Source of the DNA: Parcubacteria group bacterium | Lineage (GTDB): Bacteria > Patescibacteriota > Minisyncoccia > Moranbacterales > UBA11712 | Assembly: GCA_041661585.1 (NCBI GenBank) | Contig: JBAZUC010000003.1 | Coordinates: 1-34,668, forward strand | Length of the DNA: 34,668 bases | Direction: 5' to 3' | Shown: piece by piece, positions 8,369 to 22,269 of the stretch | How positions within the stretch are numbered: the stretch's first letter is position 1 | Layout: each line of letters opens with the position of its first letter | Program-made: the position numbers and the translations under genes | The notes under the pieces: model-generated | The model's database searches: none | The model's input: only the letters and a program-made list of their open reading frames with translations | Told to the model about the DNA's origin: nothing

Positions 8369-9373
8369 TCATCGAGTCACTAATTGCGCAAAGAAGGAAA
8401 ACATCGCTCCCCTAAAAATCATCGTTGCGATAACGCCAGCCAGCAGCCAAATCGCAAAGGGCATGCTTTTTTCATCTTTATTTTTTTGCACGTAAGCAAG
8501 GAGGATGAAAATTGGGCTGAAGAAGAGGGAAAAGAGAATGGAGTGCTTGACCAACGCCAGGATGCTTGCGATGTTTTGAGACGAACTAAAAAATCCGCTC
8601 AACCAAAAATACGGAATGATCGCGAGATAAATCAGAACCAAAATCCACGTCTTTTCCATAAGCCTCTTGAAATAGCTAAAACTTCTGGAGAGGCCTACGA
8701 ATATCAGGACGAGCCACACATTTCCAACTTGCTGATTTCCGCTGATATTCATCACTGAACCCAGCTTGAATCTCATTAGCTGAAAAATAAAAATAATCAT
8801 GAAGAAAATAACAACTGTTTTAACCAGAGTTATGTAATTCTTCCTGATATAACCGATCGATCGACCGAGTATTCCGGCTTCACCCCCAAACTTCAGAGAC
8901 GATGTATCCAGCTCTTTAAAAAAGAAATACAAACTCCGCAGGATCAGAAAAATAAATGCGAAAGTAAAAACATTGAGCAGCAGCGCCAGAGACGGGAAAT
9001 GTGGAAAGGCGCCATTGGAATAATATTTCAGGGGAAGCAATAAAGAAAAAACAAAAAAAAGCTTCGCGTCTCCAGCAGCCCACAGCTTAAAATGCCAGAG
9101 AAGATAGCCAACCGCCAAAGAGATCAGGCTGTTTATGGCAATATCGATAAAAAAATTTACCGAAAAAGCAGACGAAAAATTTCCTGCCCAAACAGCGTCA
9201 GGAAAGAAAGAAGACAGCTTGAACCACAGAAAAAGCATGAGATAACCAAAAACACCCCAGAGCAACCCTGCTTTGATCCATTTGTTCTTGATTTTTCCGC
9301 TCCGGAAATCCTGATAACTGGTGATGGCTCCAATGAAGAACAGCGCCGGTAAAAAGATAAGTTCAATGATCAT
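8369..9373 (-). CDS. A24-family (prepilin/preflagellin peptidase-type) aspartic peptidase-like polytopic membrane protein with an extra C-terminal TM domain
   Basis: Two Asp motifs as in TadV/CpaA/FlaK-type A24 peptidases: ITSYQDFRSGKIKN (D-x-R-x-G-x-I-x-N) and WAAGDAKLF (GxGDxKL-like). 334 aa and hydrophobic throughout. Confidence 0.6.
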   Translation of the reverse strand: MIIELIFLPALFFIGAITSYQDFRSGKIKNKWIKAGLLWGVFGYLMLFLWFKLSSFFPDAVWAGNFSSAFSVNFFIDIAINSLISLAVGYLLWHFKLWAAGDAKLFFVFSLLLPLKYYSNGAFPHFPSLALLLNVFTFAFIFLILRSLYFFFKELDTSSLKFGGEAGILGRSIGYIRKNYITLVKTVVIFFMIIFIFQLMRFKLGSVMNISGNQQVGNVWLVLIFVGLSRSFSYFKRLMEKTWILVLIYLAIIPYFWLSGFFSSSQNIASILALVKHSILFSLFFSPIFILLAYVQKNKDEKSMPFAIWLLAGVIATMIFRGAMFSFFAQLVTR

Positions 9374-9390
9374 GGATCATATATATCATC

Positions 9391-10320
9391 CTATTTAACG
9401 CATTTGAATTCTCCCCATCCATAATTTTTCACGTAATTTTTATAAACTCCTTCGCAAACATCCACATACCGGCATTTGATGCATACTTTGCCTTTTGTCT
9501 TGTAGGGTATGTTCGATATTTCCCTGATTTTTTTATCCTTTTCAATCAAGCGAATCTCGCCGAAGCCTATATGGGGAACAAGTTTTTTAGAAAAACACAA
9601 AGGGAGGTCAAGGATCGACAAATAATGATACTCCGCGCTGATGTTGGATACCAAGAGTTCCGGCTTGTTGCAAACTATTTTCTCGATCTCTCTCGCCAGA
9701 TCGCTGTATTTCGGCATGAGCTCGAAAAAATCTTTTTCCATATTCTCACCGCGCGGCTGGACAACCAACAGAGAGACATGATCCACCATGAATTGTTTCA
9801 GATATTTCAAAAAGCTTTCCATGTGAAGATAATTTTTCTTATTGACAACATGACTGATCAATATTTTCGACAGTCTATGCCTCTGATCGGAAATGTTGGT
9901 CAGTCCCCTAACAGTTTGGTCAAAACTTCCCGGCGCCCTGGTCAGAAATTCGTGTATACTTTTTTCATGTCCGTGCAGTGAAATAATGAACTCATTGACA
10001 CCGGCTGAAATCAGATCCAGGCAGAAATTTTTATACGCATATCGACGACCATTGCTGATGACCGCTATTTTTTTGAACCCCACTTTTTTTGCGTGCTTGA
10101 CGTATTTGATCAAATCCGGATTGAGCGTAGGTTCGCCGGAAGCAAATATGACCCTGTCGATGTTTTTGTTTTCATTGAGGACGCTGTAAACTCTTTTTTT
10201 GAACTTTTCAACGCTGACGCGCCTCGCCTCCCTGTCCGATTCCATACAAAAACGGCAGAGATTATTGCACATAAACCCCGTCGGAATAGTTAAATTTTTT
10301 TCGACAAGCTTTTCTATCAT
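9391..10320 (-). CDS. Radical SAM protein, paralog group 1, with C-terminal CxxCx5C auxiliary-cluster motif
   Basis: Motifs CNNLCRFC, ASGEPTLNPDL, SNGRRYAYKNF and SLHGH. The tail is CIKCRYVDVCEGVYKNYVKNYGWGEFKCV. ATGA start/stop overlap with the upstream gene. Confidence 0.85.
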   Translation of the reverse strand: MIEKLVEKNLTIPTGFMCNNLCRFCMESDREARRVSVEKFKKRVYSVLNENKNIDRVIFASGEPTLNPDLIKYVKHAKKVGFKKIAVISNGRRYAYKNFCLDLISAGVNEFIISLHGHEKSIHEFLTRAPGSFDQTVRGLTNISDQRHRLSKILISHVVNKKNYLHMESFLKYLKQFMVDHVSLLVVQPRGENMEKDFFELMPKYSDLAREIEKIVCNKPELLVSNISAEYHYLSILDLPLCFSKKLVPHIGFGEIRLIEKDKKIREISNIPYKTKGKVCIKCRYVDVCEGVYKNYVKNYGWGEFKCVK

Positions 10321-11294
10321 TTGAATCGCTTTTTTTGCTTAGACGAGAGATAAACCGGCTTCAAATCGGAAAGAGGATGGATTGCGGCATAATTTCTCCA
10401 GACCCCATTGCAATATTTTTCCAGATCGCAAAGAAGGCATTGCGGAGCCTTTGTTTTGCCATCCGCTGAGAAAATCTTGGTTTCGATTATCTTATTTTGG
10501 TGATCGGCGAAAGATTTTTCGGAAATTTCCATGCATTGGACCGGATATTTCCACCAATCCCCGATACAAAGTGGCAGACCGCAATAGGGATTCATAATCG
10601 TAAAGTTCAACTTTTTTCCAAGAAGAAGCGCTTTTTTCACATAAGGACTGATAGCGCCATATCTCGGCACGATATTTTTATTTGTCCACGCCCTACCGTT
10701 CGGCTGAACTATGGACAATGAAATATATTTTATCTTCGGAAATTCTTTTCTGACAAAACGCAGATATTCAGGCAAATGCCTATAGGTTTCAGCCGTAACG
10801 ACCGGATTTAGCGTCACGATTATTTTTGCTTCCAACAAATTCTTTATGCCCTTGATGCATTTTTCGAACGAATTTTTTATTCCAAGCGCGCGATCATGCT
10901 GGGCGGGGATATGCGAATGAAAACTCACGAAAGCTCGATTCAGTTTATTTTTTTTCAGTAGCTTCACATAGCCCTCTCGGCTCAGCAGTGTCGCATTTGT
11001 CTGCAATTCGACTACGCGGACTCCCTGCTGTTTTGCGAATCGTATGATTTCAGGCAGATCCTTTCGGAGCGTCGGCTCTCCGCCACTGAGGGATATGGCA
11101 ACATCCGAATATTTTTCGGTCAGGTCGCTAATCTCCTCTTTTATTGAATTGATATCTCTTTCTTTCGGCAAATTATATGACTCGGAAGGAACATTGCAAA
11201 AAGAGCATCGGGCATTGCATTTCGTTCCTACTCGGATCACTGGCAAAGACATTATTCGGCTGAATTTTTGCTTTGTTGGCTTAGTGGTTTTCAT
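10317..11294 (-). CDS. Radical SAM protein, paralog group 2, with C-terminal CxxCx5C motif
   Basis: Motifs CNARCSFC, SGGEPTLRKDL, TNATLL and SFHSH. The tail is CLLCDLEKYCNGVWRNY. An alternative ATG lies at 11252. Confidence 0.85.
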   Translation of the reverse strand: MKTTKPTKQKFSRIMSLPVIRVGTKCNARCSFCNVPSESYNLPKERDINSIKEEISDLTEKYSDVAISLSGGEPTLRKDLPEIIRFAKQQGVRVVELQTNATLLSREGYVKLLKKNKLNRAFVSFHSHIPAQHDRALGIKNSFEKCIKGIKNLLEAKIIVTLNPVVTAETYRHLPEYLRFVRKEFPKIKYISLSIVQPNGRAWTNKNIVPRYGAISPYVKKALLLGKKLNFTIMNPYCGLPLCIGDWWKYPVQCMEISEKSFADHQNKIIETKIFSADGKTKAPQCLLCDLEKYCNGVWRNYAAIHPLSDLKPVYLSSKQKKRFK

Positions 11295-12225
11295 CTTCGA
11301 TGATTTTTCTGATTATTTTTTCCTTGGAGACAAAAACAGGATATAACCCTTTCGAGCTGTAATAAACATCCATTGACGTAAGGCCGGCGCAGATCTCATC
11401 GAGCGCGCAGTGTCTGCATTTTTCCGGTTTATCACGGAAAAAATTCCTTTGCACAAGTGTGCCTCTCCCGTCCAGAAAATGGAGCGGCCTTATCTCATCT
11501 TTCACTATTTTTCTGGTTTCCGTCGAAACATGCTCGAAACCAGGCATATAGCAAAGAGGCACTCTTTCTATTCGAAAAGTTTTTCCGGCATCTTCAAACA
11601 CTTTTGCCATTTTGACAAGCTCTATTTCAAAACCATGGAGCGTAGGGATCGTCTTGGTATTTTTCATAGCCCTTTCCGAGGTCGGATCAAGATTGTTGCA
11701 ACTGAAATGACTGACAAAGGGGTATTCAGAAATTATGAATTTCGCGAGCGAACTTAGGTGGTCGGAGTTATATTTATTAAAGGTGATATTGATGTCTGTT
11801 CTTATGCCCTTCTGCTTGGAAAGATTTGTGAGGGTTTTTTTGATGTTTTCAAGTGAATCATCCTTTTTGGCAAGAAAATTCTGGACCTTGGCTCGATGGG
11901 AATATATTGAAACATGTACATGCTTCAGACCTGCCTTGAATAATCCTTCAAGATATCTTTTGTTCGCCGTTTTTTGGGCGTTGGTTATCATCTTTGTCTC
12001 AATCTTCTTTTTTGTGCAGTATCGAATCAGATCCGCGAGTTTTGGATATTTCGTCGGTTCTCCTCCAGTCAGAATAACTCCATCATATCCTCCTTCTATA
12101 TAACCATCAACAATCTTTTTCGCCTTGGAAAGCGGCATATCTTTCCATCCCGATGGAGGATTTGAACAAAAAAGACATTCTTGGTCGCACTCCCTTGTTA
12201 TTTGAATGTATGCAAAATTTGCCAT
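11281..12225 (-). CDS. Radical SAM protein, paralog group 2, with C-terminal CxxCx5C motif
   Basis: Motifs CDQECLFC, TGGEPTKYPKL, TNAQK and SIYSH. The tail is CRHCALDEICAG. Confidence 0.85.
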   Translation of the reverse strand: MANFAYIQITRECDQECLFCSNPPSGWKDMPLSKAKKIVDGYIEGGYDGVILTGGEPTKYPKLADLIRYCTKKKIETKMITNAQKTANKRYLEGLFKAGLKHVHVSIYSHRAKVQNFLAKKDDSLENIKKTLTNLSKQKGIRTDINITFNKYNSDHLSSLAKFIISEYPFVSHFSCNNLDPTSERAMKNTKTIPTLHGFEIELVKMAKVFEDAGKTFRIERVPLCYMPGFEHVSTETRKIVKDEIRPLHFLDGRGTLVQRNFFRDKPEKCRHCALDEICAGLTSMDVYYSSKGLYPVFVSKEKIIRKIIEDENH

Positions 12226-12235
12226 ACGCGTTTGT

Positions 12236-13423
12236 CTATTTTATTTTTTTTATCACACGCACCTTATCTCCTTTTGAGATAGGCTTCAGGCTCTTGAATC
12301 CGTTTTCTCTTATATAGTCGATCTGGGCTCCATCACATTGGCTATTCGAGCTGCAAATCTGACATTTCTTGCTTTTAAGAAAATACCGATGCTGAATGAA
12401 AAAATTCAGGAAATCTTGTATGCAAATTATTCCGGATTTTCTAATAGTCTTCGACTTTTGCCCAATTTTTATTTTCCCCAGGCACATCGCAATTTTTCTT
12501 GAAGATAACTGTCCCTTTTCCCTAAATTCGATGAGGTCACCGCAAAACATTTCCAAACTGCAATAGCCGCACCTTTCACCCCGGCATTCCATCATCTTCC
12601 CTTTCTTGAGATAAGCTTCGAACATATCCTTGCGCCCGTTGATCTCATCATACAACTTGTTGGGATGCTGTATCAATTCTTCGAATCCGTCAAGGTATTG
12701 AGGAGGAAACCTGTTCGTCCAGATATAAACATCCGGGCGGCGTGAAAATGCAAGCGCCTTTTTTATTCGAGGCATGGCTTTTTCCATGTCATAGAACAAT
12801 TCACCGCGATCTTCCCACGCTCGACCAAAAGGAATGATTTGGAGGAGATCAAATTCGTGTATCCCCAAAGCCACAAAATATTCAACTATTTCATCAAGCT
12901 GCTCACAATTTTGCTTATTTATGACAATATCTTGATTGACTATCAAGCCCGGAATCTCAAGAGCGTTCTTGAGGCCGGTTATAGCCTGCCGAAATGACCC
13001 CCTCACTCCCGTAAGCTTATCATGAAGTTTATCATTGTGCCCATGTATGGAAAAAGTGATCTCATTCACTCCCGCAGCGACAGAAGCGAGGAGGAAATTG
13101 TTGTACGCGAACATCCGGCCGTTCGTTATCACCTGAATATGCTTATAGCCCATTTTTTTTGCCATTTTTACCGCCTCCAAAAACTGCGGGTGGATAGTGG
13201 CCTCGCCTCCGCTCAAAACCACTTGGTCTATGTGTTGATCTCTCCCCTGCTGGAGATTTTTTCTTATTGAACTAAGCGGCAAAGCAGTGCCATTTTGAGC
13301 GTCTTTGTCAAGACAGAACATGCAATTGTTATTGCACCTCCGGGTCAGCCGTACCCAATGTTTCTTTTTGGTAGCTGCTTTTTCCTTTTCTTCTTTCTTT
13401 TTCCGTTCAAGGTCTTTTTTCAT
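12236..13423 (-). CDS. Radical SAM protein, paralog group 1, with two CxxCx5C motifs (extended C-terminus)
   Basis: Motifs CNNNCMFC, SGGEATIHPQF, TNGRMFAYNNF and SIHGH. Has CGYCSLEMFC plus a second CQICSSNSQC in an extension of about 80 aa. Confidence 0.85.
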   Translation of the reverse strand: MKKDLERKKKEEKEKAATKKKHWVRLTRRCNNNCMFCLDKDAQNGTALPLSSIRKNLQQGRDQHIDQVVLSGGEATIHPQFLEAVKMAKKMGYKHIQVITNGRMFAYNNFLLASVAAGVNEITFSIHGHNDKLHDKLTGVRGSFRQAITGLKNALEIPGLIVNQDIVINKQNCEQLDEIVEYFVALGIHEFDLLQIIPFGRAWEDRGELFYDMEKAMPRIKKALAFSRRPDVYIWTNRFPPQYLDGFEELIQHPNKLYDEINGRKDMFEAYLKKGKMMECRGERCGYCSLEMFCGDLIEFREKGQLSSRKIAMCLGKIKIGQKSKTIRKSGIICIQDFLNFFIQHRYFLKSKKCQICSSNSQCDGAQIDYIRENGFKSLKPISKGDKVRVIKKIK

Positions 13424-14843
13424 GGTTTTTCATTTTCCTTTTTATCGCGGATTCATAGACGAAAAAAAGAGCTGCTATATATTTATCTTCCGCGTCTTGA
13501 GGCTTTATCCTGAAATATTTTTTTTCTTTTCTTATTTTTTTCATTTTTCGCAATGACTGCAAAGCAAAAGGAAAAACGTCTTCAAGTCTTTTCCCAAAAA
13601 TCCTGAGAAAATCCTGGTGAAATATTTTCGTTCCTTGCTCAAAAGAACTTATCACAAAATTCAGCATTTCATCAGCGCTTGTCAAATCCCGGCCGGAAAA
13701 TATTTTCTTGGTTTCAGAAAAATCATCAAAGCTTCCAGCCTGCTGGTATTCCAGTTCGCCATAAACATGGGATCTGGAAAAGGGACCCATTCCAAAAGTG
13801 CTGCTGGGAGAACAGGCAGAAAATTCGCCTCCGTACGCCTTGCCAAATCCTTCACGTGCTTTCATAATTTTTGAATACACAGGATCGCTGAATTGCCAGT
13901 GAAACTTTGCCAGATCAAAGGGCTTGGACGTGTATCCCTTTTTCTCCGCGATTTTGAATGCTTCACGCATAAAAATCGGCATAGTTTTGGGATAATGTTT
14001 TTTGAAATATTCCTGGTAGTTCATTTTGAAATGCTTTTTGACGTACTGGCTGTCAGGCGGATAAAGACCGTAGCAAATGATCGTCGTCGGCTCAAGATCG
14101 ATCAGCTTCGAAAAACTTTCCGCAAAAGTTTTGGGAGTATCTCCCGGCAATCCGACAATAAGATCCGTGTTTATGATCTTGAAACCCAATTTTTTTGCCA
14201 TAGTTACGGCTGCAGCAACTTGTTCATAGGTTTGATATCCTCTTCCGGCTATCGTCAACGTTTTGCGACTGAAGGACTGCACGCCGAAACTCACGCGGTC
14301 AAAATCATATTTTTTCAGTATCTCGAGCTTGGACAAATCGCCGACGCTTGCATTGAATTCACAAGTCCTGATCCTTTCCTCGGAATTTTCCAAAAAATTG
14401 AACCGCCCGAAAAGCGACGAGAGAAGCTTCTCCATCTGATAACTGCTGAGAATATTCGGCGTCCCCCCGCCAATATAAAGATTCCTGAATTTTGTTTTCG
14501 AGAATGTTTTTTGGAAATATTTTATCGTATCCACCAAAAAATCGACGTATTGGCTAACTCTTTTTAGCTCCCTTAACTCATCCGACGGAAATGAACAATA
14601 ACCGCATCTGGAATTGCAAAACGGGATATGGATATAAAAATTTATATTTTCCAGCAATTCTTTTTTTCCGCGCAATCCGACAAAATTTTTCCAAAACTGC
14701 CGGACATCGGAAACGGAATATTTTTCGGTCGCTTTTGACAAGAAAAAAAGCCGGCTGATATTCGAATAGTAAGCGTCTTTTTCGAGAAACGACCTGAAAA
14801 ATTCAATTTGCCTTTTCAAATTATTGTCAGTTTTTTTTGTCAT
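13407..14843 (-). CDS. HemN/HemW-like radical SAM protein (possible class C radical SAM methyltransferase type)
   Basis: Motifs YIHIPFCNSRCGYCSFP and LYIGGGTPN are typical of the HemN family. The track start is 14921. I prefer the ATG at 14843 (MTKKTDNN...), which forms an ATGA overlap with the upstream stop. Confidence 0.8.
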   Translation of the reverse strand: MTKKTDNNLKRQIEFFRSFLEKDAYYSNISRLFFLSKATEKYSVSDVRQFWKNFVGLRGKKELLENINFYIHIPFCNSRCGYCSFPSDELRELKRVSQYVDFLVDTIKYFQKTFSKTKFRNLYIGGGTPNILSSYQMEKLLSSLFGRFNFLENSEERIRTCEFNASVGDLSKLEILKKYDFDRVSFGVQSFSRKTLTIAGRGYQTYEQVAAAVTMAKKLGFKIINTDLIVGLPGDTPKTFAESFSKLIDLEPTTIICYGLYPPDSQYVKKHFKMNYQEYFKKHYPKTMPIFMREAFKIAEKKGYTSKPFDLAKFHWQFSDPVYSKIMKAREGFGKAYGGEFSACSPSSTFGMGPFSRSHVYGELEYQQAGSFDDFSETKKIFSGRDLTSADEMLNFVISSFEQGTKIFHQDFLRIFGKRLEDVFPFALQSLRKMKKIRKEKKYFRIKPQDAEDKYIAALFFVYESAIKRKMKNHEKRP

Positions 14844-15778
14844 CTCTTTTTCTGAAAAATGACCGGATTGAACTCCTTCCATCCTTTTCTCTTTATGTAC
14901 GACTTCCAGACTCCGCTGCATTCCTCATTCATTTTACATTTGCGGCAATTCGCGCCCTTGATCTTTTCAGGCCATCGGACCGAAGCCGGCTTCGTTTTGC
15001 GCGCTTCCAGATTTTTTCTTCTCATTGCCGGCTCATAGTTTATGACATTTGTCTCCAATCCCCGGATCAAGCAGGGCGGCAGACCCATAATATATATTTT
15101 CGGGTGCTTCTTCGATTTTCGTTCGATTTGGGCAACAGCCTTTCTCAGATTTTTGCCAACTTTCGAATAATCAGGGACTATTTCTTCAAAATTCTCTTCG
15201 GCTCGTCCCTCAGGCAGCACAGTGTTGAGCACGATTCCTTCGATGTTCGGAAAAGAAATTATCAGCTCCAGAAAATCTTTGATATTTTTATAATTAATCT
15301 TGTTCATCAAAAAATTGATATAGAGTTGAAAAGGATACTTCTCCCGGAGAAAAGACAAATTGCATATTCCTAAAAATGTTTCACTGAAGCTTCCGGGAAC
15401 TCGGGTGATCTTTTCATGAATTTCCTTCACGCTTCCGTGCAATGAAACATTTATTTCCGTTACGCCCGCTTTGACTATTTTTTCACAGAATTTCTTGTCC
15501 GCAAATCTGCGACCATTGGAAATCAAACCGATTTCAGGATAGCCGCATTTCTTGGCAATTTCCACGAGCTCAATAAGATCCGGATGAAGAGTCGGCTCGC
15601 CCGAAGAGAACAAAACTTTATTGACCTTTCCCTGCATCGCCCTAAGGTCTTTTTCTGCATATTTCCGAAGACTCCGATAATCGAGCCTGTTTTGTTTGTG
15701 AACATCCGAACAAAACAAACATCCATTATTGCAATGTGAGTTGGTAAGTATATGCAATCTTTCATTCCTGACCGTCAT
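14840..15778 (-). CDS. Radical SAM protein, paralog group 1, with C-terminal CxxCx5C motif
   Basis: Motifs CNNGCLFC, SSGEPTLHPDL, SNGRRFADKKF and SLHGS. The tail is CRKCKMNEECSGVWKSYIKRKGWKEFNPV. The track start is 15868. I prefer the ATG at 15778 (MTVRNE...), which forms an ATGA overlap with the upstream stop. Confidence 0.85.
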   Translation of the reverse strand: MTVRNERLHILTNSHCNNGCLFCSDVHKQNRLDYRSLRKYAEKDLRAMQGKVNKVLFSSGEPTLHPDLIELVEIAKKCGYPEIGLISNGRRFADKKFCEKIVKAGVTEINVSLHGSVKEIHEKITRVPGSFSETFLGICNLSFLREKYPFQLYINFLMNKINYKNIKDFLELIISFPNIEGIVLNTVLPEGRAEENFEEIVPDYSKVGKNLRKAVAQIERKSKKHPKIYIMGLPPCLIRGLETNVINYEPAMRRKNLEARKTKPASVRWPEKIKGANCRKCKMNEECSGVWKSYIKRKGWKEFNPVIFQKKR

Positions 15779-16692
15779 TTTTTTCGCCTTGAAATTTTTA
15801 ACATTGAAACCGCCTTGAACTCGTCCCACCCAAATTTTTCCGGATATTCTCGCCAAGAACCTTCGCACACCTTGTCATAATCACATTTCTTGCATTGAGG
15901 CCCCTTCGCCTTGCCTTCATTTCGGCGAGCCTCAGTGAAATTCTCAACTACCGACTTAAAATCATAGATTTTCGTGGATGGAATGATATTTTCGGCGATA
16001 TGATCTTCATAGCCACTCATAAAACAATACGGAATCGCTTCGGTCATGCACGCTATTCCCTTCTTTTTCCCGATATCGAGCCCTTTTTTCGCGAACGGTT
16101 CAACCAGAGTCATGCGCGGAACGATGGAATCGAAATTATCCCTCGCGTTGCCGGTAGCGTGAACAAACGCAAATTGATATTGATCAGCACCAAGATTGAT
16201 AAGCAATCGGGCAATTTCCGGAAGATGCCTATAGTTTGATCTGGTAATAACAGTGTTTGTGATAATTTTTTGACCAAGTTTTTTCAAATTCTTGATTCCT
16301 TTCGTAGTCTGGTCGAAACTTCCCTTGGCAGAGGTGAGATAGTCATGAAGCTCGGCGCAATGTCCATGCAAAGCGGGTGAAAATTCATTTGCGCCCGCCT
16401 TAATCGTCTTTTTGCAGAAATCCAAATACGCGAACATCCGGCCATTGGTTTGAATCTGAATCGTTTTGAATTTCAATTCTTTGGCAAACCCCACAAGTTC
16501 CAAAAAATCGGATCGGATCGTCGGCTCGCCGCCCGTAAATACAATGCCTTGGCAATCACGGGAAGCCTCTTTCATTTCTTCTTTAACTTTGGAAGTTTTT
16601 TTATCTCTGAATTCGGTTCGTTTTCTCCCCTGCACGCAAAATAGGCAGTGATTATTGCAGGAAAAGCCTATTTTTATATCAGCTTTTTTCAT
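15775..16692 (-). CDS. Radical SAM protein, paralog group 1, with C-terminal CxxCx5C motif
   Basis: Motifs CNNHCLFC, TGGEPTIRSDF, TNGRMFAYLDF and ALHGH. The tail is CKKCDYDKVCEGSWREYPEKFGWDEFKAV. ATGA overlap with the upstream gene. Confidence 0.85.
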   Translation of the reverse strand: MKKADIKIGFSCNNHCLFCVQGRKRTEFRDKKTSKVKEEMKEASRDCQGIVFTGGEPTIRSDFLELVGFAKELKFKTIQIQTNGRMFAYLDFCKKTIKAGANEFSPALHGHCAELHDYLTSAKGSFDQTTKGIKNLKKLGQKIITNTVITRSNYRHLPEIARLLINLGADQYQFAFVHATGNARDNFDSIVPRMTLVEPFAKKGLDIGKKKGIACMTEAIPYCFMSGYEDHIAENIIPSTKIYDFKSVVENFTEARRNEGKAKGPQCKKCDYDKVCEGSWREYPEKFGWDEFKAVSMLKISRRKK

Positions 16693-17594
16693 TTTTTTGC
16701 CACATTGATTAAAAATTCAGTCAAGGTGCGATCCACTTTCATCGTAATTTTCAGAATTTCCTCCGGAAATGTCCTTTTCAAGATGTATTTCGGGTCAATG
16801 TTCAGGGGAAAATCGGAAACAGCGCGCCAGTCCGCAAGATTATGCACATTGCCTAATTTTAGCATATTGCCATATTTTCTGATATGTCTGTCGAGAAAAT
16901 AGTTTCCAAAATAAACATCCCCGTTGCAATCAACCGTAAGCGCGGAGCTGTGGAGAGGCACTTGATTTTTTTGCTCCAAATTTTCGAGTCGTATTCTTGT
17001 CTTCGCGCTTGCAATGACTTTTCTCATTTCATCAAAACATTTCCGAAGACTCCTGATTTCCTTCAGGGACCATTTAACATAGTAAGCCGGCAAAAATTTG
17101 AATCTCCTGATCCCTTTCCCGCTGAGGTCGACAAAAATACTTTTTGCTGAATCCGTTTTCCCCGGCAGTAGGTTTATGGTTACGACCAGAGAAGGCAATC
17201 TGGTGCAAATATTGAGAAAAAGACGGCTGCTGAAAATTTCTTTGCGCACCGAACTGACAATCAGCTTCAAGTTGGGTCTTTTCTGAAAAAAATCAACTTT
17301 TTTTCTGTCAAGGAGCAGGCCGTTGGTCACAAGGTCGAAATCGACGTTCGCATATCTTTTTTGAGTTCGATTCACAATCCTTCTTATAACTTCAAAATTG
17401 AGCAGTGGTTCGCCACCGAAAAATCTTATGAGCGGCCTTTGAGAAGAATCATTTTTTCCCAAAAAAAGAGAAACAGCCCTCCAGGCAGTTTCAAAGTTCA
17501 TATTTGTATTGCTTTTCTCCACTTGGCAGTGAGCGCATCTGAGATTGCATCGCTTTGTGACGACCAAGATCAGAATTTTTTTGTCAGACCTCAT
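16689..17594 (-). CDS. Radical SAM peptide-maturase-like protein lacking a complete SPASM Cys set (possible HxsC counterpart)
   Basis: Motifs CNLRCAHC near the N-terminus, FFGGEPLLNF and VDCNGDVYFGN (pre-SPASM-like), but no CxxCx5C. It is the first gene downstream of the His-Xaa-Ser peptide. Confidence 0.75.
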   Translation of the reverse strand: MRSDKKILILVVTKRCNLRCAHCQVEKSNTNMNFETAWRAVSLFLGKNDSSQRPLIRFFGGEPLLNFEVIRRIVNRTQKRYANVDFDLVTNGLLLDRKKVDFFQKRPNLKLIVSSVRKEIFSSRLFLNICTRLPSLVVTINLLPGKTDSAKSIFVDLSGKGIRRFKFLPAYYVKWSLKEIRSLRKCFDEMRKVIASAKTRIRLENLEQKNQVPLHSSALTVDCNGDVYFGNYFLDRHIRKYGNMLKLGNVHNLADWRAVSDFPLNIDPKYILKRTFPEEILKITMKVDRTLTEFLINVAKK

Positions 17595-17691: not shown

Positions 17692-17964
17692 TCAATAGGC
17701 GCCGTGAGAACCGTGGGAGCCGTGAGCGCCGTGAGAACCGTGGGAGCCGTGAGAACCGTGGGAGCTATGCGAACTATGAGCGCAAGTGGCGCTGGCGATG
17801 TTCGCATTCGGTTTCATAAGCCCGGACAGAGCAGCGGCACTGGCAATCGCCACTATTCCCATTCTTGCTACGCTTGATTTGTTGATACTACCCTCTTCAC
17901 TTGAAAGAAAGGCTTTTATTTGTTTTTTGATTCTGGGAATCTTTGCTTTTTTTGTTTGTGCCAT
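17692..17964 (-). CDS. hxsA: His-Xaa-Ser repeat peptide (HxsA-like candidate precursor), 90 aa
   Basis: MAQTKKAKIPRIKKQIKAFLSSEEGSINKSSVARMGIVAIASAAALSGLMKPNANIASATCAHSSHSSHGSHGSHGSHGAHGSHGSHGAY. The track start at 17973 is TTG; I prefer the ATG at 17964. Has a basic N-terminus, one hydrophobic segment, a single Cys, and then nine H-x-S/A triplets. Confidence 0.7.
   Translation of the reverse strand: MAQTKKAKIPRIKKQIKAFLSSEEGSINKSSVARMGIVAIASAAALSGLMKPNANIASATCAHSSHSSHGSHGSHGSHGAHGSHGSHGAY
17698..17778. repeat. Coding tandem repeat (period 9/18 nt) specifying the nine His-Xaa-Ser/Ala triplets
   Basis: The plus strand reads GCGCCGTGAGAACCGTGGGAGCCGTGAGCGCCGTGAGAACCGTGGGAGCCGTGAGAACCGTGGGAGCTATGCGAACTATG, with repeated GCCGTGAGAACCGTGGGA units. 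Locally GC-rich. Confidence 0.85.
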
Positions 17965-19019: not shown

Positions 19020-20513
19020 CTATTTGGGAGGAATTTTCTGACTGCATTCGATTTCTCTTCTTGCCCATCTTTCTAATATTTTTTTTGTTTTGTTGCTCTG
19101 CAAATATTCAAAAATCATATCAAAAATGGATTTTGAAATAATGCACCGCATGCTATTTGGCTGTTGACTGAAAATGTTTCCCGTTTCGGCATAGTTATAG
19201 ATCGGACACACCCCGCAATAGGGCTGATATGCGCAATGGGCACACCCGGCCTGACAACTCGTTTCGGAAGCCAAGCACATCCCTTTTAATGTTGGGTTGT
19301 CTATTATCTCCGAATAACTGTTTTTTGTGACATCTCCCAGCTTAAACATATCTTCTCCCGCATATCCCATCATTCTTCCCTCGTCGCAGGTATATATGCT
19401 TCCGTCATAATCATAGGCCAATTGGCCGATGCCCGCTCCGCAAGGCGAACGCAATTCCAGATAATTGATGTCTTCATCCTCAAGTATCTTCGATGCCATC
19501 ATTGCGGCTGTCCGCTCATGAAATTTTTTTCCGGATTTATTCAGCTCAAAAATATATTCCAGCGCCTTTTGGTAAAATTTCAGATATTCCTCCGTAGTAT
19601 AGCCTATTTTCGACCAGATCTTTCCTGCTATCCCGAGCGGACTCAAGGGCCTCAAAAATATCGCTTCAAATCCCCACTTGAGATATTCATCAACAATTTC
19701 TTTTGGATGATCCAGCGAGAACCGGCTGACGGTCACAATCGCTCCCGGCTGATGATAATATATTTTCCCTTTCACCTTTTTCCGTTCCAATTGCCTGTAT
19801 TTTTCAAGGGCGATATTGAGCCATTTGGTGGTGCTCTCATAGCTGCCTTGCGCCAGAAACGGACGATTTTTGTTTTGAATCTCCTTCGGACCATCCAAAG
19901 ATGAGCAAAGCGCCACGTGATTGTTGAAAAAGAACTCCAATTTTTCTTTGTCCATCAATGAAAAGTTCGATACCAGCCGCAATTCCAAATTCTTTTTTTC
20001 GGCCTTGTTCTTCTCGTTGGCGTATTCAACAATAAACTTCACAATCGGCCAATTCAGAAGCGGCTCTCCGCCCTGAAATTCTATGGCGATATTTTTGTTT
20101 GGAGTGGTAAAGATGAAATCGACGGTCTGCTTCGCGGTTGCCAGATCCATATCATATTTCATATCATCCACTTTTTTCGAGCTCGTCTGGCAATATATGC
20201 AATTATAGTTGCAGCGCAAGGTCACGACAATGATGTGAAGACTCGGACCTCCGAGGAGATTCCCTCGTTTCTTCGCGTATTTTTCAATGTACGTTTCAAA
20301 ATTTATCTTATCCCGAATGAAATTTTTTTTCAGCAATTCGCGATACTTCTTGTTTTTCGGATTTATTTTCCCCTCGAGATATTGCTTGAATTCCTTCTCT
20401 TCAAGCAACGCATAATCTCCCACGTCGTTCGTTAAGAGGTATTCCTTACCCAATTTTTTATATCGAAAAAATCCGACTTTCGAGTGATTCAGTTTATTCG
20501 TATTGAAATCCAT
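19020..20513 (-). CDS. hxsB: Radical SAM/SPASM peptide maturase (HxsB-like)
   Basis: 497 aa. Has an N-terminal extension of about 100 aa, then CNYNCIYC and FQGGEPLLNW. The SPASM region reads CGAGIGQLAYDYDGSIYTC...CQAGCAHCAYQPYCGVCP...RC. Confidence 0.8.
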   Translation of the reverse strand: MDFNTNKLNHSKVGFFRYKKLGKEYLLTNDVGDYALLEEKEFKQYLEGKINPKNKKYRELLKKNFIRDKINFETYIEKYAKKRGNLLGGPSLHIIVVTLRCNYNCIYCQTSSKKVDDMKYDMDLATAKQTVDFIFTTPNKNIAIEFQGGEPLLNWPIVKFIVEYANEKNKAEKKNLELRLVSNFSLMDKEKLEFFFNNHVALCSSLDGPKEIQNKNRPFLAQGSYESTTKWLNIALEKYRQLERKKVKGKIYYHQPGAIVTVSRFSLDHPKEIVDEYLKWGFEAIFLRPLSPLGIAGKIWSKIGYTTEEYLKFYQKALEYIFELNKSGKKFHERTAAMMASKILEDEDINYLELRSPCGAGIGQLAYDYDGSIYTCDEGRMMGYAGEDMFKLGDVTKNSYSEIIDNPTLKGMCLASETSCQAGCAHCAYQPYCGVCPIYNYAETGNIFSQQPNSMRCIISKSIFDMIFEYLQSNKTKKILERWARREIECSQKIPPK

Positions 20514-20535: not shown

Positions 20536-20736
20536 TCACATGCCTTTCTCGAGGCTCAAAATATAGTTGCAGAATTCTCGCTCGATAACATCCTGCGTGC
20601 CGTTCTCTTTTGGCTTGATCGAGATCAAATAATACTTTCCTTTTTCTGACAGTCGGAAACCGGCAAGTCCTTTATAATCTTTTATTGCCTGCTCGATCGC
20701 CTCTCGAACATATATTTTTCTGTTTAATTTTACCAT
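20536..20736 (-). CDS. Small HxsD-like protein (66 aa)
   Basis: MVKLNRKIYVREAIEQAIKDYKGLAGFRLSEKGKYYLISIKPKENGTQDVIEREFCNYILSLEKGM. The track ORF extends to 20919, overlapping the upstream gene. I prefer the ATG at 20736. The sequence resembles the N-terminal two thirds of the neighbouring HxsD-like protein and ends in an F-x-N-Y-x-L-x-x-E motif. Confidence 0.45.
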   Translation of the reverse strand: MVKLNRKIYVREAIEQAIKDYKGLAGFRLSEKGKYYLISIKPKENGTQDVIEREFCNYILSLEKGM

Positions 20737-20749
20737 GCTGATTTTGTCG

Positions 20750-21214
20750 CTATTTTTTCTTTGCCTTTTTTTCTCTTTTCTTTGGAGCCGGCTGCGCATC
20801 TTCCCAGGAAGTGGCAATTCCCAGCGGGTCATCGCGCCAATCGCCGGCAGACTGATCATTTTCAACGCTTGGCTGTTCCGATAAATTTTCCGGCAAGCTG
20901 GAAACCAGCGCGGACGCAACGATATATTCCCTAATCTTCTGGTTGTTTCTCGCTATTTCCACTCGCAGAAGAAAATTCAGCAGTTCATTGAGAAACTCGC
21001 CCTCCAAGGCTTCTAATTTCTTTTTATCCGCTTTTTCTTTGCTCCTAAGCCGAACCATTATTTCTTTTTCAGGATCTCCGTCCAAATATATGTAGGCCCT
21101 GTCAATAAAAACATAAGCAGCGCTGAAAATAGCTTCCAGCGGATAATTTTTCGTTTTCAGCCAAAACACCACATCTTGATCTTTTGGGCTGATTTTTCTT
21201 TTTGGTAGCTGCAT
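20750..21214 (-). CDS. hxsD: HxsD-like protein (154 aa) with a charged C-terminal tail
   Basis: YPLEAIFSAAYVFIDRAYIYLDG...MVRLRSKE...LEGEFLNELLNFLLRVEIARNNQKIREYIVASAL. The ELLNFLLRVE segment resembles the LLNDYxLRE signature I recall for the HxsD family. Confidence 0.55.
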   Translation of the reverse strand: MQLPKRKISPKDQDVVFWLKTKNYPLEAIFSAAYVFIDRAYIYLDGDPEKEIMVRLRSKEKADKKKLEALEGEFLNELLNFLLRVEIARNNQKIREYIVASALVSSLPENLSEQPSVENDQSAGDWRDDPLGIATSWEDAQPAPKKREKKAKKK

Positions 21215-21228
21215 ATGTTTGGTCTTTG

Positions 21229-22269
21229 TTAATTCGTCTCAATCCAGCCACAGGAGCGGGTGTTCCCAGCGCGGCAAGATGAGATAGTGCCTCCACAAAC
21301 AGTGCTTCCACACGTCCAGACCCACTCCGTGTAATTGTTTTCCAAGCTGCCATTATTGAAGGAGCTTTCCGGAGAACACAAGTTACTCGAGGGAGTGCCT
21401 GATTGACAGAAATTGTTTCCGTCGAGGCTACCGCATTGGCCAGTTTGTTTCACGTCATAAGTCTTGCTGCATGGAGCAGTCGGGGTATGGCATGGATCAT
21501 TGTTTGTACAATCCCACTTCCATGGATTGTCTGCGCTGCCGTCACCGTGAAAATTTGTCGCTGTGTTGTCTGCAACGCATAAGTTGGGACTGGACGAGGT
21601 GAGCGACTCACCTTGGCAGATAGTCCCTCCAAGCACGCTCCCACACTGACTTTGGCTTGGAGTTAGGGCGGTAGCACAGCATAAAGGCGAAGACTGTCCT
21701 CCAAAAAAACCGTCACATTTCCAGCTCCAAGGATTGTCATTGTTTATGATATTCGGCATCCCAATGATGCATAACTCGGAAGAAGGCTTTGTATTCAAAG
21801 TATCTGGCGCGCAGAAAGATAGGTTTTGCGCACACTTCCCATCTATGTTGCCAAGAACAAAACTTCCTTGGGCATAGGGACTCCAATCATAAGCGTCCTT
21901 CACTCTCACGGCATAATTGTATGTAGAGTTGTCAATTGGTAGCGTTCCCGGAGGTACTTCGTATGAATAGTTCCCCGGCGGAAACGGAGCTGGTAACGTC
22001 AGGGATTTGATCCCTGTGTCATAGTTGGTTGATGCACTGGTAATTGTTATTTGATAATTATAAAAGGGACTTCTAGATACTTTGAAATTTATTTTTGGTC
22101 TGTTTGGGTTGATCAAATCGGGTTCAGGCGGCCCGACACAAACCTCGATATTCGTAAACGGCGCTGCTCCAAATGTTTCACTCGCAAAACTGCACACAAA
22201 AACCAAAACGAGTAAAATTGTGGCTATTCTCTCGATTTTGATATATTTTTTTTTGTTTTCGTTATTCAT
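21229..22269 (-). CDS. Secreted Cys-rich protein: signal peptide, paralogous N-terminal domain of about 100 aa, and three W-x-W-x-C modules
   Basis: Signal-like ATILLVLVFVCSFASETFGAAP. The domain NIEVCVGPP...VRVKDAYDWSPYAQGSFVL is shared with 22400-22978. The three modules are NPWSWKCDG, NPWKWDCTN and YTEWVWTCGS. The stop is 14 nt before the hxsD-like start. Confidence 0.65.
   Translation of the reverse strand: MNNENKKKYIKIERIATILLVLVFVCSFASETFGAAPFTNIEVCVGPPEPDLINPNRPKINFKVSRSPFYNYQITITSASTNYDTGIKSLTLPAPFPPGNYSYEVPPGTLPIDNSTYNYAVRVKDAYDWSPYAQGSFVLGNIDGKCAQNLSFCAPDTLNTKPSSELCIIGMPNIINNDNPWSWKCDGFFGGQSSPLCCATALTPSQSQCGSVLGGTICQGESLTSSSPNLCVADNTATNFHGDGSADNPWKWDCTNNDPCHTPTAPCSKTYDVKQTGQCGSLDGNNFCQSGTPSSNLCSPESSFNNGSLENNYTEWVWTCGSTVCGGTISSCRAGNTRSCGWIETN

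What the first reader, a model, noticed from the sequence alone, without database searches (positions are those of the whole stretch)
9391..16692. Six paralogous radical SAM genes with a shared C-terminal P-x-C ... CxxCx5C ... G-W-x-E-F tail, amplified in tandem
Seen directly: the ORFs at 9391, 10317, 11281, 12236, 14840 and 15775 share the same architecture. It runs CxxxCxxC near residue 15-45, then GGEPT, T/SNG, S-x-HGH, G-S-F, and a tail with one upstream Cys (P-L/Y-C) plus CxxCx5C.

Four of them are clearly closest to each other (9391, 12236, 14840, 15775). They share SNGRRYAYKNF-type and SLHGH-type motifs, and three of the four end in GW(G/K/D)EF. Two (10317, 11281) form a second subgroup with TNA... 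and S-x-(H/Y)-SH. The 12236 copy carries a second CxxCx5C.

Inference: four Cys would fit one auxiliary 4Fe-4S cluster (twitch or partial SPASM). Local duplication and divergence of a single maturase suggests either division of labour along the repeat peptide or different chemistries.
Basis: partly seen in the sequence, partly recalled or inferred. Interest (0 to 1): 0.65.

Follow-up and report, generated by a model that had tools for sequence, protein, structure and literature searches.

The report
Six ancient HxsC-type radical SAM paralogs
The six genes are real, but they are old and individually conserved relatives of the radical SAM enzyme HxsC rather than a recent local amplification. They sit in an enlarged, unstudied version of the His-Xaa-Ser protein-maturation system, whose four-gene form blocks phage DNA entry in E. 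coli.

Summary
Six intact, tightly coupled minus-strand genes encode ~305-395 aa radical SAM proteins that are homologous over their full length. They share CxxxCxxC, GGEPT and a Cys tail (P-x-C ... CxxCx5C-x-G).

The "local duplication" reading fails. Each paralog has closer orthologs in other phyla than paralogs in the window: C1/15775 is 60-75% identical across Patescibacteria, Myxococcota, Omnitrophota and DPANN archaea, against 30-31% to its closest neighbours in the array (25% to C4). Trees resolve separate cross-phylum clades for C1, C3, C4, C5 and C6; C2 is a lineage-restricted offshoot.

The tail is the HxsC family tail, shared with canonical HxsC, and its four Cys are almost invariant in 291 homologs. 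The C3 clade is the exception: it lacks the P-x-C Cys and carries eight tail Cys.

The operon also encodes HxsD, an HxsD-like protein, HxsB and an HxsA4 (His-Gly-Ser)n precursor, all above NCBIfam cut-offs. None of the six reaches the HxsC or HxsC4 cut-off.

Most likely the six are non-redundant tailoring enzymes acting on HxsA4. This is inferred, not shown. A C6-C1-C3-C4 cassette followed by an A24-peptidase-like membrane protein also occurs without HxsA/B/D nearby, in Myxococcota and allied Bdellovibrionota/"deltaproteobacterial" bins.

Verdict: new variant of a known kind, chemistry unknown.

The parts
15775..16692 (-). C1: HxsC-family radical SAM, 305 aa. It is the most conserved member and the anchor of the cassette.
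   Evidence: Pfam PF04055 83 bits. NF038332 181 bits and TIGR03977 117 bits, both below cut-off. 2636 homologs; the 120 best listed are 59-75% identical across phyla and archaea. Clade support 100. C12/16/19 and C223/267/270/276 are invariant. Model pLDDT 88.
14840..15778 (-). C2: HxsC-family radical SAM, 312 aa from the ATG at 15778. A lineage-restricted offshoot next to the C6 clade.
   Evidence: NF038332 186 bits. Its only ortholog among 80 loci is in Moraniibacteriota locus L006 (59%). The C2+C6 clade has support 98. ATGA overlap with C1.
13407..14843 (-). HemN/HemZ-like (class C type) radical SAM that interrupts the array. It is not one of the six.
   Evidence: TIGR03994 162 bits and NF006067 158 bits, both below cut-off. 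ATGA overlap upstream and a 17-nt overlap downstream. Orthologs are present in L006 and several other arrays.
12236..13423 (-). C3: HxsC-family radical SAM, 395 aa, with eight conserved tail Cys. These form a Cx4CxxCx5C insert, then one Cys, then CxxCx5C.
   Evidence: Clade of 52 rows from 47 loci, support 97-100. None of the 52 has the P-x-C Cys. 50 of 51 listed C3 ORFs carry two or more CxxCx5C motifs (the exception, L008, runs off its contig). Invariant C280/285/288/294/314/354/357/363. Model pLDDT 88.
11281..12225 (-). C4: HxsC-family radical SAM, 314 aa.
   Evidence: TIGR03977 90 bits. Clade of 47 rows from 46 loci spanning CPR, Myxococcota, Elusimicrobia, Omnitrophota and others. Core clade support 100.
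10317..11294 (-). C5: HxsC-family radical SAM, 325 aa, sister group of C4.
   Evidence: NF038332 116 bits and TIGR03977 100 bits. Clade with Schekmanbacteria, Saccharibacteria and Parcubacteria orthologs has support 97. C4+C5 has support 97-98.
9391..10320 (-). C6: HxsC-family radical SAM, 309 aa. Of the six, it is the closest to the NCBIfam HxsC4 model.
   Evidence: NF038332 224 bits against a cut-off of 500. Clade of 27 rows from 26 loci, including the first gene of the cassettes of Myxococcota and allied lineages. A Myxococcales member scores 302.7 bits, still below cut-off.
8369..9373 (-). Polytopic membrane protein resembling an A24 prepilin peptidase. It closes the operon and recurs at the end of related cassettes.
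   Evidence: Pfam PF01478 21.3 bits, below the 26.5 cut-off. Homologs follow the cassette in most loci that extend far enough.
16689..17594 (-). R0: radical SAM with an HxsB/PapB-like N-terminal half and no SPASM domain. It is not one of the six.
   Evidence: NF047865 82 bits over residues 8-106 only. BLASTP to HxsB gives E 1e-13, but to the six 5e-4 or worse. It lacks the tail.
17692..17964 (-). HxsA4 precursor. It has a conserved leader, a hydrophobic segment, nine H-x-S/A triplets and a C-terminal Tyr.
   Evidence: NF038313 61.8 bits, above the cut-off of 55. A leader HMM finds the same family in 23 of the 80 related loci (24 matching ORFs; L059 has two), including Myxococcales and Woesearchaeota; a repeat scan adds one in Verrucomicrobia (L055).
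19020..20513 (-). HxsB, a radical SAM/SPASM maturase.
   Evidence: TIGR03978 526 bits, above the cut-off of 370. Pfam SPASM hit.
20536..20730 (-). HxsD-like small protein.
   Evidence: NF038315 67.8 bits, above the cut-off of 41.
20750..21214 (-). HxsD.
   Evidence: TIGR03976 64.7 bits, above the cut-off of 50.

Best explanation
The six genes are ancient, non-redundant paralogs of the radical SAM enzyme HxsC. They fall into five cross-phylum orthogroups (C1, C3, C4, C5, C6) plus a lineage-restricted sixth (C2).

Each keeps the SAM-binding CxxxCxxC cluster and a C-terminal module with four invariant Cys. That module most likely binds one auxiliary [4Fe-4S] cluster of the twitch type. C3 has eight tail Cys and probably binds two clusters.

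The six are co-transcribed and translationally coupled inside an enlarged HxsA4-type His-Xaa-Ser operon. The gene order is HxsD, HxsD-like, HxsB, a Cys-rich membrane protein, HxsA4, R0, C1, C2, a HemN-like gene, C3, C4, C5, C6 and an A24-like membrane protein.

Inferred mechanism:
1. In the cytoplasm the enzymes act one after another on the (His-Gly/Ser-Ser)n tail of HxsA4. Each installs a different radical-mediated change, such as a cross-link, a dehydrogenation or a C-addition.
2. The A24-like membrane protein then removes the conserved leader at its K-[LMI]-G / hydrophobic junction.
3. The product ends up on or outside the membrane.

The biological role may be envelope defence against phage, as for canonical HXS. 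That is analogy only.

Shown here: homology, orthogroup structure, Cys conservation, operon structure and HXS membership of the neighbouring genes. Inferred: the substrate, the order of action, the chemistry and the role.
For: - Family: for five of the six the best NCBIfam match is HxsC4, followed by HxsC; for 11281 the order is reversed. Canonical HxsC from Aeromonas and Methylobacter plasmids shares the P-x-C ... CxxCx5C-x-G tail.
- Ancient paralogy: C1 orthologs are 60-75% identical in other phyla and archaea, against 25-31% to the window paralogs. A FastTree of 291 sequences and an IQ-TREE of 62 both give separate clades: C1 100, C3 100, C4 core 100, C5 97, C2+C6 98. No window paralogs are sisters.
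- Auxiliary cluster: the tail Cys are conserved in nearly all 291 sequences, with a clade-specific alternative in C3. Models have pLDDT 88, and the best PDB neighbours are SkfB and BlsE.
- Link to HxsA4: HxsA4, HxsB, HxsD and HxsD-like all pass curated cut-offs. Leader-bearing (HGS)n precursors lie in 24 of the 80 C1 loci, across bacteria and archaea. 8 of 12 CPR loci with 5 kb or more on both sides carry HxsD, HxsB and HxsA.
- Operon: overlaps of 4-17 nt or gaps of 17 nt or less from R0 to the A24-like gene.
- Selection: of the 40 listed natural strain variants across the stretch, 31 are synonymous and 9 are not; in C3 the split is 10 to 3.
- Precedent: in E. coli, HxsB, HxsC and HxsD mature HxsA, with a +8 Da change in an HxS repeat and N-terminal processing (PMC13128918).
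Against: - No experiment bears on these proteins, and the chemistry of even canonical HxsC is unknown.
- In Myxococcota and allied bins, the C6-C1-C3-C4-A24-like cassette usually has no HxsA, HxsB or HxsD within 5-10 kb (2 of 19 loci). No leader-bearing peptide is found there either.
- C1 also occurs as a single gene, for example in a Bdellovibrio contig.
- The very high conservation of C1 is unusual for a peptide maturase.
- All six lack the ~110-aa N-terminal domain of canonical HxsC, and none reaches the HxsC or HxsC4 cut-off.
- The A24 assignment rests on a sub-threshold Pfam hit.
Confidence: 0.6

Rival explanations
1. The HxsC-like cassette (C6-C1-C3-C4 plus the A24-like membrane protein) is an independent module. 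Its substrate would not be HxsA: it could be a cofactor or tetrapyrrole-like small molecule, a lipid, or another envelope protein. On this view its fusion to HxsD-HxsB-HxsA in this genome is modular co-location, and only some of the six touch the peptide.
For: - 17 of 19 loci from Myxococcota and allied Bdellovibrionota/"deltaproteobacterial" bins with 5 kb or more of flank lack HxsD, HxsB and HxsA, yet 13 have C3, 12 have C4 and 9 have the A24-like gene.
- No leader-bearing peptide is found in them.
- C1 is a singleton in a Bdellovibrio contig, and a C1+C3 pair stands alone in a 5.98-Mb Myxococcota chromosome.
- In Elusimicrobia loci L073 and L081 the cassette is flanked by NifH-like ORFs. 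This matches the published 'group VI nitrogenase paralog plus radical SAM suite', for which a tetrapyrrole or cofactor role was proposed (bioRxiv 10.1101/765248).
- C1 is 60-75% identical across domains.
Against: - Wherever an HxsA4-type precursor is present, it sits directly upstream of such arrays. This holds in CPR, Omnitrophota, Schekmanbacteria, Verrucomicrobia, Myxococcales and Woesearchaeota.
- The family is specifically the HxsC family, whose canonical member acts on HxsA (PMC13128918).
- The missing Hxs genes could lie elsewhere in those genomes.
Confidence: 0.25
2. This is the first reader's reading: a recent, local tandem amplification of one maturase gene in this lineage, followed by divergence.
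For: The genes are adjacent, co-oriented and similar in length. C2 and C6 fall in one clade, and C2 has orthologs only in a close relative. One lineage-level duplication is therefore possible.
Against: - Paralog identity is only 22-36%.
- C1, C3, C4, C5 and C6 each have orthologs in other phyla at higher identity, in the same relative order.
- In both trees every window paralog groups with sequences from other genomes. This includes C6 with Moranbacteria (support 99) and C2 with Moraniibacteriota (support 100).
Confidence: 0.03
3. Only one or two of the six are catalysts. The rest would be degenerate subunits acting as scaffolds or peptide chaperones in a hetero-oligomer.
For: - The six lack the N-terminal domain of canonical HxsC, so substrate binding must be supplied in some other way.
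- Some boxes are relaxed in C4 and C5: TNA instead of TNG, SIYSH or SFHSH in place of SLHGH, and DDSL or KNSF instead of GSF.
Against: - All six, and essentially all 291 homologs, keep CxxxCxxC, the GGE box and the tail Cys.
- Each orthogroup is conserved across phyla, and the listed strain variants across the stretch are mostly synonymous. This is what is expected of active enzymes.
Confidence: 0.1

Closest known systems
Canonical HXS system, HxsD-HxsB-HxsC-HxsA, of Pseudomonadota (TIGR03976-03979; antiphage role in Li et al., Nat Commun 2026, PMC13128918)
   Same: - HxsB and HxsD here pass the same curated models.
- The precursor has His-Xaa-Ser repeats.
- The six share with canonical HxsC the radical SAM core and the P-x-C ... 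CxxCx5C-x-G tail.
   Different: - There are six HxsC-like genes instead of one, plus R0 and a HemN-like radical SAM gene. The paper reports that more than 99.8% of systems have four proteins.
- The six lack the ~110-aa N-terminal domain of canonical HxsC and score 81-117 bits against a cut-off of 268.
- The precursor is the short HxsA4 type, with a conserved leader, a hydrophobic segment and uninterrupted (HGS)n. It has no peptidoglycan-binding domain.
- An A24-like membrane protein and a second HxsD-like protein are added.
- The host is a small-genome Patescibacteria-type bacterium, not Pseudomonadota.
NCBIfam 'type 4' models: HxsA4 (NF038313), HxsC4 (NF038332, 'rSAM_rare_HxsC4') and HxsD_rel (NF038315)
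   Same: HxsA4 and HxsD_rel match above cut-off. HxsC4 is the top-scoring model for five of the six, and C6-clade proteins come closest to it.
   Different: None of the six reaches the 500-bit cut-off; the best is 224 bits. Of ten representatives from other arrays, the best (a Myxococcales protein) scores 302.7 bits. Public records name these proteins only 'radical SAM protein', or mis-name them MoaA. No paper in the searched library mentions HxsA4 or HxsC4.
Twitch-domain radical SAM enzymes with one auxiliary cluster: SkfB (6efn), BlsE (7vob), MoaA
   Same: These are the best structural matches of the C1 and C3 models. SkfB gives E 1e-12 with TM 0.64 for C1, and BlsE gives E 2e-12. As in twitch enzymes, one upstream Cys and a CxxCx5C block flank a beta-hairpin region in the model.
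   Different: The sequence match to solved structures covers only the core, residues ~5-199. The tail has no solved relative. The cluster count is inferred from Cys conservation alone. C3 has eight tail Cys.
Radical SAM suites next to group VI nitrogenase-like genes of groundwater Elusimicrobia (Meheust et al. 2020, bioRxiv 10.1101/765248)
   Same: Elusimicrobia loci L073 and L081 carry C1, C3, C4 and the A24-like gene next to NifH-like ORFs. The paper reports up to 13 radical SAM genes beside these paralogs.
   Different: The window has no nitrogenase-like genes. The paper proposes a tetrapyrrole or cofactor substrate and does not mention His-Xaa-Ser peptides.

Membership tests
Radical SAM superfamily (PF04055) | CxxxCxxC cluster motif and a Pfam score above the gathering threshold | tested here: met
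   All six score 65-87 bits against a cut-off of 29.5. CxxxCxxC is present in all six and in all 291 homologs, apart from one masked residue.
HxsC (TIGR03977, equivalog) | Score at or above the curated cut-off of 267.9 bits | tested here: not met
   Scores are 81, 100, 90, 100, 112 and 117 bits.
HxsC (TIGR03977, equivalog) | C-terminal P-x-C ... CxxCx5C-x-G module, as in canonical HxsC | tested here: met
   The alignment with Aeromonas and Methylobacter HxsC shows P221, C267, C270, C276 and G278 invariant in all eight rows. The C223 cysteine is shared by seven of the eight rows, all but 12236.
HxsC (TIGR03977, equivalog) | N-terminal ~110-aa domain preceding the radical SAM core | tested here: not met
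   It is absent from all six. phmmer with the canonical N-terminal 120 aa finds nothing in the window proteins or in the ORFs of the loci then held (L001-L085).
HxsC (TIGR03977, equivalog) | Genomic neighbourhood with HxsB, HxsD and a His-Xaa-Ser repeat protein | tested here: met
   HxsB 526 bits (cut-off 370), HxsD 64.7 (cut-off 50) and HxsA4 61.8 (cut-off 55), all in the same operon.
HxsC4 (NF038332) | Score at or above the curated cut-off of 500 bits | tested here: not met
   Scores are 224, 116, 59, 122, 186 and 181 bits. The best relative tested scores 302.7 bits.
SPASM domain (PF13186) | Seven-Cys motif with CxxCx5CxxxC, binding two auxiliary clusters, plus a Pfam match | tested here: not met
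   None of the six has a PF13186 hit, whereas HxsB in the same operon does. The tail has CxxCx5C without the following xxxC, and four Cys in total. C3 has eight, in a different pattern.
Twitch-domain radical SAM | A single auxiliary Fe-S cluster held by a beta-hairpin/helix extension after the core | tested here: inconclusive
   Four Cys are invariant. The model has strands at 240-243, 263-266 and 275-277 and helices at 282-292 after the core. The top PDB hits are SkfB and BlsE.
A24 prepilin peptidase (PF01478), for the gene that closes the array | Pfam score at or above 26.5 bits | tested here: not met
   21.3 bits for the window protein and 16.8 bits for a Myxococcales homolog. This is a resemblance only.

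The most novel reading that the evidence does not exclude
HxsC is the single-copy remnant of a much larger and older enzyme family, or a sibling of it. A mobile cassette spanning both domains would form a multi-step radical tailoring line. Its core is C1 plus an A24-like membrane protein, usually with C3, C4 and C6, and it holds up to eight or more distinct HxsC-type enzymes. In ultra-small, host-dependent or predatory lineages (CPR, DPANN, Omnitrophota, Myxococcota, Bdellovibrionota), this line would convert a pilin-like, leader-bearing (His-Gly-Ser)n protein into a heavily modified envelope polymer. Each orthogroup would perform a different, still unknown reaction.
Probability: 0.35. Interest if true: 0.8.

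Novelty: new variant of a known kind. Interest (0 to 1): 0.6.

Why it matters
The four-gene HXS system was given a function only in 2026, and its radical chemistry is still unsolved.

This window shows that the HxsC enzyme belongs to a family of at least ten anciently separated orthogroups. They are deployed together, here six at a time, on one short His-Gly-Ser repeat peptide. The same kit recurs in at least 575 species-level genomes of poorly studied phyla and archaea. These proteins are currently annotated only as 'radical SAM protein' or mis-annotated as MoaA.

The practical gains are:
- The orthogroups defined here (C1, C3, C4, C5, C6) give a map for drop-out expression experiments that could reveal several new peptide modifications at once.
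- The bare cassettes of Myxococcota and allied lineages, and the Elusimicrobia cassettes linked to nitrogenase-like genes, offer a test of whether the family acts only on HxsA.

Tried and rejected
- **Genome search tools.** I therefore could not test whether genomes with the bare cassette encode HxsA or HxsB elsewhere, nor count copies in the window's own genome.
- **PADLOC.** There are no HXS models. The only hits are generic radical SAM likeness to prokaryotic viperins, which is not informative.
- **Literature.** There are no hits for HxsA4, HxsC4, HxsA2/3, NF038332 or TIGR03977. A search for radical SAM + Patescibacteria + RiPP returned only general biosynthetic surveys.
- **Which clade is NCBI's HxsC4?** None of ten representatives reaches 500 bits. 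A database search with the closest one returned no protein named HxsC4.
- **Canonical HxsC N-terminal domain supplied in trans?** No counterpart was found.
- **One enzyme per repeat?** The correlation between repeat number and paralog number is weak and not significant.
- **Phage carriage?** IMG/VR holds only distant radical SAM relatives at 27-33% identity.
I rejected this because at 22-36% amino-acid identity synonymous sites are saturated. I used strain variants from other metagenomes instead, and only 40 of 218 were listed.
- **Tail cluster geometry.** Model coordinates are not exposed, so Cys-Cys distances could not be measured.
- **Solved structures by sequence.** Matches cover only the core.

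Full report
**What is there.**
The window carries one long minus-strand operon from about 21214 down to 8369. I call them C1 (15775-16692), C2 (14840-15778), C3 (12236-13423), C4 (11281-12225), C5 (10317-11294) and C6 (9391-10320).

All six match Pfam Radical_SAM well above threshold (65-87 bits). They align over their whole length. Shared features are CxxxCxxC, a GGEPT-type box, T/SNG or TNA, an S-x-H-G/S-H box, GSF, and a C-terminal CxxCx5C-x-G.

BLASTP between the six gives E 1e-15 to 1e-57, with most pairs aligned over 283-321 residues (four pairs align over only 184-196). Against the three other radical SAM genes of the operon (R0 16689-17594, HxsB, HemN-like) E is never better than 2e-5. 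The tails alone still recognise each other (E 1e-6 to 1e-12 among C1, C2, C5 and C6).

Junctions from R0 to the last gene are -4, -4, -4, -17, +10, -14, -4 and +17 nt, which indicates translational coupling. Near-identical sequence is present in independent groundwater, hot-spring, landfill and peat metagenomes. Contigs from four of those runs (groundwater, hot spring, landfill) were laid on the stretch, and they span every paralog junction.

- C3 has no P-x-C cysteine.
- C2 most likely starts at 15778.
- A HemN-like gene (13407-14843) interrupts the array.

**What family.**
For five of the six the best NCBIfam model is NF038332 (HxsC4; 116-224 bits, cut-off 500), with TIGR03977 (HxsC) next; for C4 the order is reversed (HxsC4 59 bits, HxsC 90 bits). 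HxsC scores run 81-117 bits against a cut-off of 268. The neighbours pass curated cut-offs:
- HxsB: 526 bits against 370.
- HxsD: 64.7 against 50.
- An HxsD-like protein: 67.8 against 41.
- The 90-aa peptide at 17692-17964 as HxsA4: 61.8 against 55.

Canonical HxsC proteins taken from annotated Aeromonas and Methylobacter plasmids share the P-x-C ... CxxCx5C-x-G tail. They also carry an extra ~110-aa N-terminal domain that the six lack, and that has no counterpart elsewhere in the loci. So the six are HxsC-family proteins but not members of the HxsC or HxsC4 equivalogs.

**Not a local amplification.**
- C1 has 2636 database homologs at E <= 1e-10. The 120 best listed are 59-75% identical and about 296 aa long. 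They come from Patescibacteria, Omnitrophota, Myxococcota/'Deltaproteobacteria' and Woesearchaeota.
- A scan of one genome per species found at least 575 genomes that encode it.
- I took 80 loci with up to 10 kb of flank, called ORFs and collected 291 full-length HxsC-family sequences.
- FastTree was rooted on canonical HxsC and cut into clades. An IQ-TREE run on 62 representatives agrees with it.
- C1 forms its own clade (support 99-100). C3 forms a clade of 52 rows from 47 loci (97-100). The C4 core clade has support 100. C5 is sister to C4 (C4+C5 97-98). C6 has 27 rows from 26 loci. C2 joins only its ortholog in a Moraniibacteriota locus (100), inside a C2+C6 clade (98).
- No two window paralogs are sisters.
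- At least six further HxsC-like clades occur in other arrays.
- Copy number per locus ranges from 1 to 8, with a mode of 4.

**The tail.**
In 20 diverse C1 orthologs, C12/C16/C19 and C223/C267/C270/C276 are invariant. Across all 291 sequences the three CxxCx5C cysteines are essentially invariant. The P-x-C cysteine is present in every clade except C3 (0 of 52).

C3 instead has an invariant Cx4CxxCx5C insert, one further invariant Cys and the terminal CxxCx5C. That makes eight tail Cys in all. The 'second CxxCx5C' is therefore a clade character, not a peculiarity of this copy.

AlphaFold models of C1 and C3 are confident (pLDDT 88, pTM 0.86-0.87). Their best PDB neighbours are SkfB and BlsE, followed by GDGT-MAS, viperins, SuiB and MoaA. 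Sequence search of the PDB matches only the core. Pfam SPASM does not match. One auxiliary 4-Cys cluster of the twitch type is the most economical reading, with two in C3. It is inferred, not shown.

**Context in other genomes.**
Two patterns emerge.

(a) In CPR, Omnitrophota, Schekmanbacteria, Verrucomicrobia, some Myxococcales and Woesearchaeota, the arrays follow HxsD-(HxsD-like)-HxsB-HxsA4.
- The precursors share a strikingly conserved leader (PKIKKxLKxFLxSEEGKIxKK ... K-[LMI]-G), a hydrophobic segment, (HGS)n and a terminal W/Y or GGWC.
- 8 of 12 CPR loci with 5 kb or more on both sides have all three Hxs genes.

(b) In Myxococcota, Bdellovibrionota and allies, a compact cassette of C6-type, C1, C3, C4 and an A24-like membrane protein usually stands without HxsA, HxsB or HxsD nearby (2 of 19).
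- These loci hold no leader-bearing peptide.
- A KamA-like radical SAM gene is sometimes adjacent.
- C1 also occurs alone in a Bdellovibrio contig, and as a C1+C3 pair in a 5.98-Mb Myxococcota chromosome.
- In Elusimicrobia the cassette is flanked by NifH-like ORFs. This corresponds to the published 'group VI nitrogenase paralog with a radical SAM suite'.

**How it most likely works.**
By homology with HxsC, and from the operon structure, the six are cytoplasmic radical SAM enzymes acting on the HxsA4 repeat tail. [quoted passage not shown]

Two points favour different reactions or steps over positional division along the repeat. Each orthogroup is separately conserved. And paralog number does not track repeat number (rho 0.51, p 0.09, n = 12).

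Listed strain-level variants across the stretch are mostly synonymous (31 to 9 overall; 10 to 3 in C3), consistent with active genes. The A24-like protein, a sub-threshold Pfam hit, is the candidate leader peptidase. A defence role is analogy only. PADLOC has no model for the system, and IMG/VR holds no close homolog.

**Rivals.**
The main rival is that the cassette is an independent module with a non-HxsA substrate. The evidence for it is the bare cassettes of Myxococcota and allies, the singletons, the unusual conservation of C1 and the Elusimicrobia context. The trees exclude recent local amplification. Conservation of all catalytic motifs argues against degenerate scaffold paralogs.

**Novelty.**
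The HXS system and the HxsA4/HxsC4 models are known. The multi-paralog HxsC arrays and their orthogroup structure are not described in any paper I could find. Public annotation calls these proteins 'radical SAM protein' or MoaA.

Earlier AI notes of this scan report similar arrays in other genomes. I read them after my own trees were built and did not use them as support. The exception is the nitrogenase-like lead, which I checked.

Verdict: a real feature, a new variant of a known kind, with unknown chemistry.

Noticed in passing
L073:450-1271 and L073:11899-14268; L081:427-1248: NifH-like ORFs (they begin MEKIVIFGKGGIGKST...) flank the C3-C4-A24-like-C1 cassette in Elusimicrobia loci. This ties the HxsC-like cassette to the published, unexplained 'group VI nitrogenase paralog plus radical SAM suite'.
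   Followed up: partly
L027:14520-15608 (minus strand); L089:5774-6784: A KamA/lysine-2,3-aminomutase-like radical SAM gene, followed by an M1 peptidase, lies directly after the A24-like gene in two cassettes of the Myxococcota type (L027 is a Myxococcales bin; L089 has no taxon label). Evidence: Pfam Radical_SAM plus a weak LAM_C hit, and a precomputed LAM_C hit in L089.
   Followed up: partly
L088:6927-7838: The C1 ortholog of a Bdellovibrio contig is a singleton. No other HxsC-like, Hxs or A24-like gene lies within ~7-8 kb. Its neighbours are a LigD_N-like protein, a UbiA-family protein and a TPR protein.
   Followed up: partly
window 17692-17964, and HxsA4-type ORFs in L006-L084 (list): The HxsA4 leader (PKIKKxLKxFLxSEEGKIxKK ... 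K-[LMI]-G followed by a hydrophobic helix) is conserved from CPR to Myxococcales and Woesearchaeota. It looks like a class III (prepilin-type) signal. There are two C-terminal subtypes: one ends in W/Y, the other in GGWC.
   Followed up: partly
L059:3135-4802: A 555-aa protein carries the HxsA4 leader, followed by His-x-Ser repeats (mostly HSS/HGS) throughout the 150 residues printed. It sits next to a 144-aa sibling, so precursor length varies greatly between arrays.
   Followed up: no
L006:15652-17727 and L006:17738-19939: The closest syntenic relative (Moraniibacteriota) has two C3-type genes of 691 and 733 aa with a large extra C-terminal region. The window's C3 is 395 aa. L006 also has a second HemN-like gene and an extra HxsC-like gene of a clade absent from the window.
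   Followed up: no
window 23090-24103: A 337-aa Cys-rich protein lies upstream of the secreted-protein genes, on the same strand. It contains ...NEGCIFECPDQNFHSCSN... and a C-terminal CKHNCYDCGYC. It has no Pfam or NCBIfam match.
   Followed up: partly
window 21229-22269 and 22400-22978: Two paralogous secreted proteins with signal peptides and a shared N-terminal ~140-aa domain lie just upstream of HxsD. The larger one has a Cys-rich tail. Homologs of the larger one precede HxsD in L006 (37%) and L053 (35%).
   Followed up: partly
window 10314-10345 and 10330: Strain variation at the C5/C6 junction. A landfill-metagenome contig skips 30 nt (10314-10345), and a hot-spring contig lacks 1 nt at 10330, just upstream of the C6 start and inside the last codons of C5.
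   Followed up: no
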